Source: the human T2T-CHM13v2.0 reference genome, Homo sapiens. Taken from it: a DNA stretch of 64,000 nt. Location: NCBI RefSeq assembly GCF_009914755.1, contig NC_060930.1; one strand, given 5' to 3'. The notes beneath the pieces are model-generated. The model did not search any database. It had not been told where the DNA came from and was given only the letters and a program-made list of their open reading frames with translations. The translations under genes and the position numbers were made by a program. This document shows, in pieces, positions 12,837 to 14,038 of this stretch; within the stretch, counting starts at the first letter, position 1; the number at the start of each line of letters is the position of its first letter.

Positions 12837-13269
12837 TTCTCATTCAGCATTTACCTTCGGTATAGAAAGCCGTATCAGTCAGTCCAATATAAATGGTGCC
12901 CTCGTCCCACCTGCTGCATTGATTTCTATCATCCAGAAAGGTCTACAGTATGTAGAAGCAGAAGTTAGTATTAATGAGGATGGTACTTTCTTTGATGGTC
13001 GACCAATGAGTCTGTCCCTGATAGACGCCTTAATGCCTGATGTAGTACAAACAAGACAACAAGCTTATAGCGATAAGCTTAAACAGCAACAGGCAGCAGC
13101 TGCCACAGCCAACCAACAAGGATCTGCAAAAAAAAAAAAAAAAAAAAAAAAAAAAAAAAAATGCAGAAAACACAGCAAATGGGGAGGAGAATGGAGCACA
13201 TATTATAGCAAATAATCATACTGATACGATGGAAGTGGATGGAGATATTGAAATCCCTCCTAATAAAGC
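12837..13269 (+). pseudogene. TBL1XR1: TBL1XR1 processed pseudogene, segment 2 (inverted): ~aa22-162 (LisH end, F-box-like region, linker)
   Basis: [63 protein letters not shown][A34][26 protein letters not shown]; intronless; frameshifted by the A-run. Confidence 0.95.
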
Positions 13270-13274
13270 AGGAC

Positions 13275-13313
13275 AAGGATAAATTCATGTCCTTTGCAGG
13301 GATGTGGATGAAG
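13275..13313 (+). mobile_element. 39-nt L1 fragment embedded between pseudogene segments
   Basis: aaggataaattcatgtcctttgcagggatgtggatgaag; 37/39 identical to 13699-13737. Confidence 0.9.
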
Positions 13314-13512
13314 TCCTGTTGGACTCCATTTGATAGGATAAATTTCTTTATTATGTGCTTGCAAATCATGGACACAATTGTCTTGTTTCATACTCCATAT
13401 CTTTAAAGTCATGTCATCAGAACAAGAGGCCAGGAGATTGCCAGTTGGGTCCCATTTGATAGCATTTACTTCATTCTTATGTCCCTGGAATGTTTTAATA
13501 GGTCTGTCTTGT
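13313..13512 (-). pseudogene. TBL1XR1: TBL1XR1 processed pseudogene, segment 3: WD40 region ~aa338-403
   Basis: Minus strand reads [66 protein letters not shown]; not shown in the ORF track. Confidence 0.95.
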
Positions 13513-14038
13513 GACCCAGTGATCCCATTACTCAGTATATACCCAAAGGATTATAAATAATGCTACTATAAAGACACATGCACATGTATGTTTATTGCAG
13601 CACAATTCACATTAGCAAAGACTTGGAACCAACCCAAGTGTTCATCAATTAGGAAAATGTGGCACATATACACCATGGAATACTATGCGGCCATAAAAAA
13701 GGATAAGTTCATGTCCTTTGCAGGGACGTGGATGAAGCTGGAAACCATCATTCTGAGCAATCTATCCCGAAGACAGAAAACCAAACACTGGACGTTCTCC
13801 CTCATAGGCAAGAGTTGAACAATGAGAATGCACGGACACAGGGCGGGGAACATCACACACCAGGACCTGTCGGGGCGTGGGGGGTATGAGGCAGGGATAG
13901 CATAGGAGAAATACCTAATGTAAATGACGAGTTGATGGGTGCAGCAAACCAACATGGCACATGTATACCTATGTAACAAGCCTGCACGTTGTGCACATGT
14001 ACCCTAGAAATTAAAGTATAATAAAAAAATAAATAAAA
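13512..14038 (+). mobile_element. LINE-1 3' end (L1PA5/6-like), ~525 bp, with A-tail
   Basis: ORF2 C-terminus (TWNQPKC..MEYYAAIKK..WMKLETIIL); 3'UTR aatgtaaatgacgagttgatgggtgcagcaaaccaacatgg; tail aataaaaaaataaataaaa. Confidence 0.93.

What the first reader, a model, noticed from the sequence alone, without database searches (positions are those of the whole stretch)
13269..13737. Embedded L1 snippet shares private variants with the adjacent L1 and sits in a 6-bp inverted repeat
Seen: 13275-13313 (aaggatAaattc..gggatGtgg) and 13699-13737 (aaggatAagttc..gggacGtgg) both carry A and G where the L1PA3/4 in this window (20659-20697, minus strand) reads aaggatGag..gggacAtgg. The snippet is bracketed by caggac (13269-13274) and gtcctg (13313-13318), the same TBL1XR1 hexamer in both orientations. 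Inference: both L1 pieces were copied from one source molecule, and the polymerase entered and left the TBL1XR1 template at the same base.
Basis: partly seen in the sequence, partly recalled or inferred. Interest (0 to 1): 0.7.

Follow-up and report, generated by a model that had tools for sequence, protein, structure and literature searches.

The report
Scrambled L1–TBL1XR1 chimeric retrocopy
A 7-kb dead copy of TBL1XR1 messenger RNA sits reshuffled and back to back with a piece of L1 jumping gene, and a 39-base scrap inside it carries the same two rare base changes as that L1, likely because both RNAs were copied into one chromosome break in one messy insertion, a type already seen in cultured cells.

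Summary
The 39-nt snippet (13275-13313) matches the adjacent L1 at 37 of 39 and carries both of that L1's two departures from the majority motif. Both together occur in 6 of 8,288 genome copies of the motif, 2 of them at this locus. With stricter motifs there are 2 others against 2.1 expected by chance. A shared L1 template is therefore well supported (about 1 in 1,000); no full-length source or sibling copy turned up. The snippet lies inside a larger object: a spliced TBL1XR1 retrocopy running from 7020 to 13512, far beyond the annotated span. It lacks its own poly(A), is cut into three pieces in alternating orientation, and is fused tail-out to an L1 3' end. Best reading: one L1-driven insertion with two RNAs primed from the two ends of a break, plus several template jumps at the inner junction. 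The 'same base' claim is plausible but not shown: only 5 bases are filler, and an equally perfect 6-nt template lies inside the snippet itself. No target-site duplication was found, and later repair copying is not excluded. The class is published; my searches found no report of this locus.

The parts
7020..12837 (-). TBL1XR1 retrocopy piece E: last coding exons plus nearly the whole 3' UTR, spliced, no poly(A); stops 53 nt short of the parent's first downstream AATAAA; interrupted by three Alus absent from the parent
   Evidence: colinear with G000:C3:179823816-179836047; 263 of 4,497 mismatches in the UTR
12837..13269 (+). Piece A: three earlier TBL1XR1 exons, spliced, in the opposite orientation; includes a 34-A run (13128-13161) where the parent has about 6 A
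13270..13274 (.). 5-nt filler; reverse complement of the start of piece C, and also of a hexamer inside the snippet (13288-13293)
13275..13313 (+). 39-nt L1 snippet sharing two rare variants with the adjacent L1, plus two changes of its own (one is CG to TG)
13313..13512 (-). Piece C: three middle TBL1XR1 exons, spliced; ends at the foot of a 4-bp hairpin present in the parent
13512..14038 (+). 5'-truncated L1 3' end with A-rich tail; groups with L1PA6-like copies (subfamily label recalled, not from a call)
6887..7019 (-). Old L1-type sequence forming the left flank; weakly continuous with the right flank after 14035, which suggests a near-blunt target site
   Evidence: 2 of the listed alignments extend 12-17 nt across the in-silico join (E 0.003 and 9e-6 overall)

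Best explanation
This is a scrambled, spliced TBL1XR1 retrocopy fused in opposite orientation to an L1 3' end, and it likely arose in one germline insertion in which L1 reverse transcriptase copied two RNAs from the two ends of one break and re-copied 39 bases of the same L1 template while joining them. Inferred steps: (1) a bottom-strand nick primed on the L1 poly(A) and made about 520 nt of cDNA; (2) the top-strand end primed inside the TBL1XR1 3' UTR and made about 5 kb of cDNA; (3) joining was not clean. A strand running through piece C likely stopped at a small hairpin, jumped to the same L1 template for 39 nt, jumped back to the TBL1XR1 end it had left for about 6 nt, then to upstream exons (piece A), and finally joined piece E. 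Three Alus came later. The product is predicted to be non-functional; what it records is mechanism. Shown: the anatomy, the splicing, the junction bases and the rarity of the variants. Inferred: single event, order of steps, which enzyme.
For: Five pieces in alternating orientation with only one poly(A), the L1's. All four inner junctions lie within about 680 bp of the mRNA/L1 join; three show 1-nt overlaps and one has the 5-nt filler. Double variant in 4 of 8,286 other copies. No close L1 in 70 kb around the parent's 3' part: best hits 67% and 75%, so not a simple read-through RNA. The flanks look weakly contiguous and would give a TTTT/G nick, a motif counted as an endonuclease site in PMC12016303. 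The adjacent L1 is 7.2% from its group consensus at non-CpG sites (32 of 445), against 2.6% for the coding pieces versus parent (24 of 934, p=1e-4), so the template may already have carried private changes. Precedent: two-RNA opposite-orientation insertions, and extra cDNA pieces at an inversion junction, in L1-induced cells (PMC11702581 section 7). Purified ORF2p jumps templates and copies RNA or DNA (PMC10830420 passages).
Against: No target-site duplication: the longest shared flank word is 6 nt and unrelated, whereas twin-primed insertions typically keep 12-18 bp. The L1's excess divergence is not significant against the UTR (228 of 4,417, p=0.08) or against 8 like copies (183 of 3,646, p=0.06). 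If the template was near consensus, later copying fits the 2 shared / 0 / 2 private pattern 4-14 times better. No sibling or source L1 was found: best hits 87-90% (40 candidates scored in each). The junction patterns also fit host end-joining.
Confidence: 0.55

Rival explanations
1. Same single insertion, but the snippet and filler were made by host end-joining (polymerase theta, synthesis-dependent microhomology joining) copying from the exposed L1 cDNA and folding back on cDNA ends.
For: At 13313 a 4-bp hairpin predicts a snap-back extension that matches the L1 entry at 4 of 5; 20 of 513 L1 positions would do so. The bottom strand folds into a 9-bp stem there, with 2 of 200 shuffles as stable. 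The filler has an inverted template 13 nt away. These meet the loose criteria of PMC5728401.
Against: The snippet's template is 424 bp away, beyond that paper's 30-bp criterion. Overlaps are only 1 nt. Local templates are common: 104 of 1,024 five-mers have one. Piece A is over 400 nt.
Confidence: 0.22
2. An ordinary inverted L1/mRNA chimera inserted first. Millions of years later a break near its inner junction was repaired by template switching, which copied 39 nt from the already mutated neighbouring L1 DNA and reshuffled the exons.
For: The two variants occur elsewhere only at independent-mutation rates, with no sub-lineage. The chr2 and chr4 double carriers are not siblings. The likelihood ratio favours later copying by up to 14 if the source was near consensus.
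Against: It needs a second rare complex event landing within about 700 bp of the inversion junction of a 7-kb insert. The ratio falls to 0.7-2 if the template was 2-4% diverged. The snippet has 2 private changes in 39 nt, so it is old too.
Confidence: 0.18
3. The snippet came from an unrelated L1 and the two shared bases are parallel mutations.
For: Both are transitions; they are seen singly in 57 and 88 of about 2,500 copies.
Against: Joint probability about 0.0008, upper bound about 0.003. Both of the adjacent L1's 2 variants in the window are shared.
Confidence: 0.02
4. One read-through RNA (TBL1XR1 continuing into a downstream L1, since lost) underwent ordinary twin priming with switching.
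For: mRNAs ending in L1 sequence are retrocopied in cells.
Against: No such L1 in 70 kb at the parent. The retrocopy stops 53 nt before an AATAAA that read-through would have to pass.
Confidence: 0.03

Closest known systems
Two-RNA, opposite-orientation ORF2p insertions, and the SEMA3C case with extra cDNA pieces at the inversion junction (Mendez-Dorantes et al., PMC11702581; abstract, sections 6-7 and passages read; figures S7-S10 not seen)
   Same: Two transcripts back to back, extra reverse-transcribed pieces at the inner junction, short or no microhomology
   Different: Those are new insertions in L1-induced cultured cells. This one is an old germline copy with three mRNA pieces plus a re-copy of the same L1, and no TSD
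Twin priming with 5' or 3' switching (bioRxiv 10.1101/2024.08.27.596794; passages only, supplements not seen)
   Same: An extra internal piece at the twin-priming breakpoint, copied from elsewhere on the same RNA (20 and 3 cases)
   Different: Described for one L1 RNA in tumours; here a host mRNA and an L1 are interleaved
Germline mRNA/LINE-1 chimeras (Law and Burns, PMC13174262; abstract, section 13, passages, text search of 6 supplements)
   Same: mRNA fragment 5' of an L1; the 2 of 17 antisense cases are ascribed to twin priming
   Different: 15 of 17 are sense, mostly first exons on near full-length L1, and the shown examples have TSDs. TBL1XR1, LOC100421513 and THEMIS were not found in the supplements (no coordinate search was made)
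SD-MMEJ templated insertions (Khodaverdian et al. as recalled, PMC5728401; passages)
   Same: Short inverted repeats spanning junctions; filler copied from nearby
   Different: Templates there lie within about 30 bp; here 39 nt come from 424 bp away and the pieces are RNA-derived

Membership tests
Two-RNA opposite-orientation L1-mediated insertion | Two RNA-derived sequences in opposite orientation at one site | tested here: met
Two-RNA opposite-orientation L1-mediated insertion | Host part copied from spliced mRNA | tested here: met
   9 coding-region blocks abut without introns
Two-RNA opposite-orientation L1-mediated insertion | Poly(A) at the primary end, internal priming at the other | tested here: met
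   A-rich tail after the L1; the retrocopy ends 53 nt before AATAAA with no tail
Two-RNA opposite-orientation L1-mediated insertion | Both parts arrived at the same time | not testable with these tools
   No other primate genome is held; divergences are compatible but not decisive
Canonical twin-primed insertion | 12-18 bp target-site duplication | tested here: not met
   at most 3-4 A-rich bases could be duplicated. Not filed as canonical.
Canonical twin-primed insertion | L1 endonuclease motif at the nick | tested here: inconclusive
   TTTT/G only if the flanks were directly contiguous; weak support
Canonical twin-primed insertion | 2 or more nt of microhomology at the 5' junction | tested here: inconclusive
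   1 nt certain, 4 nt if the three A's belong to the target
SD-MMEJ junction | Repeat motif of 4 bp or more within 30 bp, with primer and microhomology repeats | tested here: met
   At 13313 and 13270, with one mismatch at 13313; the criterion is loose
SD-MMEJ junction | Insert templated within 30 bp of the join | tested here: not met
   The snippet's template is 424 bp away
L1PA6 subfamily | Diagnostic 3' UTR bases | tested here: inconclusive
   Groups with 8 of 19 aligned copies, plus the younger window copy, by about 10 shared sites; the name is recalled, no repeat library was on hand

The most novel reading that the evidence does not exclude
A roughly 30-million-year-old germline record of one reverse transcriptase jumping four times between two RNAs. 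It would have used a single broken TBL1XR1 end twice, and an already aged, non-consensus L1 RNA mobilised in trans as the poly(A) partner. If such fossils are common, shared private variants in junction scraps could date and order template jumps genome-wide.
Probability: 0.25. Interest if true: 0.5.

Novelty: new member of a known kind. Interest (0 to 1): 0.33.

Why it matters
It would extend a junction type so far documented mainly in L1-induced cells and tumours to an old fixed germline insertion, and shows that private variants can tie a 39-nt scrap to its template. It also corrects the annotation: the pseudogene is about 6.5 kb and internally scrambled, not a 1-kb minus-strand copy. There is no sign of function, and a single old locus cannot identify the enzyme.

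Tried and rejected
Source or sibling L1: two similarity searches gave only 87-90% hits (40 of 9,552 and 40 of 4,086 candidates scored, so not exhaustive). The chr2 and chr4 double carriers share almost nothing beyond group-diagnostic or CpG-type sites; the chr2 copy is the most distant group member at 14.7%. The chr13 and chr17 carriers were not examined. TSD: none. RNA-editing or APOBEC signature in the adjacent L1: the spectrum resembles other copies; rejected. Stutter origin of the filler (imperfect period-6 repeat with the snippet start, 5 of 6): possible but needs an extra mutation. CAGGAC also occurs at 12808 and 13861, so the hexamer alone is unremarkable. Gene conversion between the two L1 pieces: thought unlikely for 39 bp (general knowledge, untested). 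Hairpins in the two RNA templates are not more stable than shuffles (z -0.8 and +1.3). The L1 consensus came from 8 copies picked by similarity to the snippet; alignment columns 206-250 were left out of the divergence counts, and copies aligning under 400 nt were dropped. The 90-column clustering window was chosen after seeing the data. Literature on this locus: searches showed no description of its structure (listings only for 23 and 49).

Full report
Observation. The comparator L1 is at 20660-20698 and matches the snippet at 34 of 39. The hexamers are at 13269-13274 and 13313-13318.

Are the variants rare? Exact 31-nt motifs over the whole genome gave: majority form 2,360, A only 57, G only 88 including decayed TG forms, both 4, two of which are this locus. 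Independence predicts 2.1 doubles elsewhere and 2 are seen; the joint frequency is 0.0008, upper 95% bound 0.003. A relaxed motif that also admits younger copies gave 6 of 8,288, two of them here. These A and G are the adjacent L1's only two departures from the majority motif in the 39 nt, so no variants were cherry-picked. The same numbers show no sub-lineage carrying both. The chr2 and chr4 carriers are not siblings, and similarity searches found nothing above 87-90% (only 40 candidates scored in each).

What it sits in. Alignment to the parent gene at G000:C3:179.82-179.87 Mb shows a spliced retrocopy far larger than annotated. On the top strand, left to right: flank; antisense 3' UTR and last coding exons (7020-12837, three Alus absent from the parent); three early exons in sense (12837-13269); 5 filler bases; the L1 snippet in sense; three middle exons in antisense (13313-13512); the L1 3' end in sense with an A-rich tail to about 14038. 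Two mRNA stretches are missing: about 115-120 nt between the middle and last pieces (counted), and several exons between the early and middle pieces (not measured). The retrocopy ends 53 nt before the parent's AATAAA and has no tail. The junctions at 12837, 13313 and 13512 overlap by 1 nt; the outer left junction overlaps by 1 nt, or 4 if three A's belong to the target. There is no TSD. The left flank is old L1 sequence; when the flanks are joined in silico, 2 of the listed alignments run 12-17 nt across the join. That is weak support for a near-blunt site with a TTTT/G nick, a motif counted as an endonuclease site in PMC12016303 (passages). No close L1 lies in 70 kb around the parent's 3' part.

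The inverted hexamer. Its left C is the last base of the early-exon piece and its right G is shared with L1, so 5 bases need explaining. Only 1 of 1,024 five-mers would mirror the opposite junction exactly, about 2% after allowing 24 comparable placements. However, 104 of 1,024 have some template of 6 nt or more within about 50 nt, and this filler has a perfect one inside the snippet at 13288. The same-base reading is the better of two, not a demonstrated one. At 13313 the middle piece ends at the foot of a 4-bp hairpin. Fold-back extension would match the L1 entry at 4 of 5 bases, which 20 of 513 L1 positions would also do; the bottom strand forms a 9-bp stem, matched by 2 of 200 shuffles, while the top strand is unremarkable (16 of 200). 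This hints that synthesis ran from the middle piece into L1 on the bottom strand (inference).

Timing. Retrocopy versus parent: 38 of 970 mismatches in coding blocks, 263 of 4,497 in the UTR. At non-CpG sites the adjacent L1 is 32 of 445 from an 8-copy consensus, against 183 of 3,646 for those copies (p=0.06), 228 of 4,417 for the UTR (p=0.08) and 24 of 934 for coding blocks (p=1e-4). An already diverged template is thus possible but unproven. With 2 shared, 0 L1-only and 2 snippet-only changes, later copying from DNA fits 4-14 times better if the source was near consensus, and 0.7-2 times if it was 2-4.5% diverged. I favour copying at insertion because all inner junctions cluster at the mRNA/L1 join, where switching is known to occur (inference). 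The age of about 30 million years and the L1PA6 and AluS labels are recalled and come from no call.

Mechanism. Shown: anatomy, splicing, junction bases, variant rarity. Inferred: one event; L1 poly(A) priming at one end and internal TBL1XR1 priming at the other; jumps from the middle piece to L1, back to the same TBL1XR1 end, to the early exons, and on to the last piece. ORF2p is my preferred enzyme (0.55), because purified ORF2p jumps templates and copies RNA or DNA from short primers (PMC10830420 passages). Host end-joining in the same event (0.22) and later repair (0.18) remain open.

Comparison with what is known. PMC11702581 (sections 6-7) reports nine two-transcript insertions, ascribes the opposite-orientation ones to joining of two RT-extended ends, and describes one inverted insertion with extra RT pieces at its junction. 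It also reports 12-18 bp TSDs for 5'-inverted insertions, which this locus lacks. The tumour preprint 10.1101/2024.08.27.596794 (passages) names twin priming with 5' or 3' switching. PMC13174262 (section 13 and passages) lists 17 germline mRNA/L1 chimeras, 2 of them antisense; a text search of its 6 supplements found no TBL1XR1, but coordinates were not searched. Searches for this pseudogene (listings only) showed no structural description. Supplements of the preprints were not seen and may hold closer cases.

Verdict. The feature is real, and the shared-template inference survives its own test. It works like a two-RNA twin-primed insertion with switching; it is not filed as canonical twin priming because the TSD test failed. 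New member of a known kind, interest 0.33.

Noticed in passing
window 7020-12488: The retrocopy extends about 5.5 kb beyond the RefSeq span of LOC100421513, and 12837-13269 is on the opposite strand to the annotation.
   Followed up: yes
window 13128-13161: A pure 34-A run replaces about 6 A in coding-derived sequence; slippage at insertion, a further jump onto a poly(A) tail, or later expansion.
   Followed up: no
window about 13750-13840: 17 of the adjacent L1's 39 differences fall in one 90-column window (p=0.004, window size chosen afterwards); 2 of 8 comparison copies also reach p below 0.05. No clear mutational signature.
   Followed up: partly
L005:1501-2005 (G000:C11:46778448-46778952): An independent 505-bp TBL1XR1 3' UTR fragment, 95% identical to the parent and lacking the Alu at 12178, with no evident tail.
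   Followed up: partly
window 9723-10020, 11082-11398, 12178-12489: Three Alus, all in the retrocopy's sense orientation, within 2.8 kb; an 11-bp TSD was recovered for 1 of 3 by my script.
   Followed up: partly
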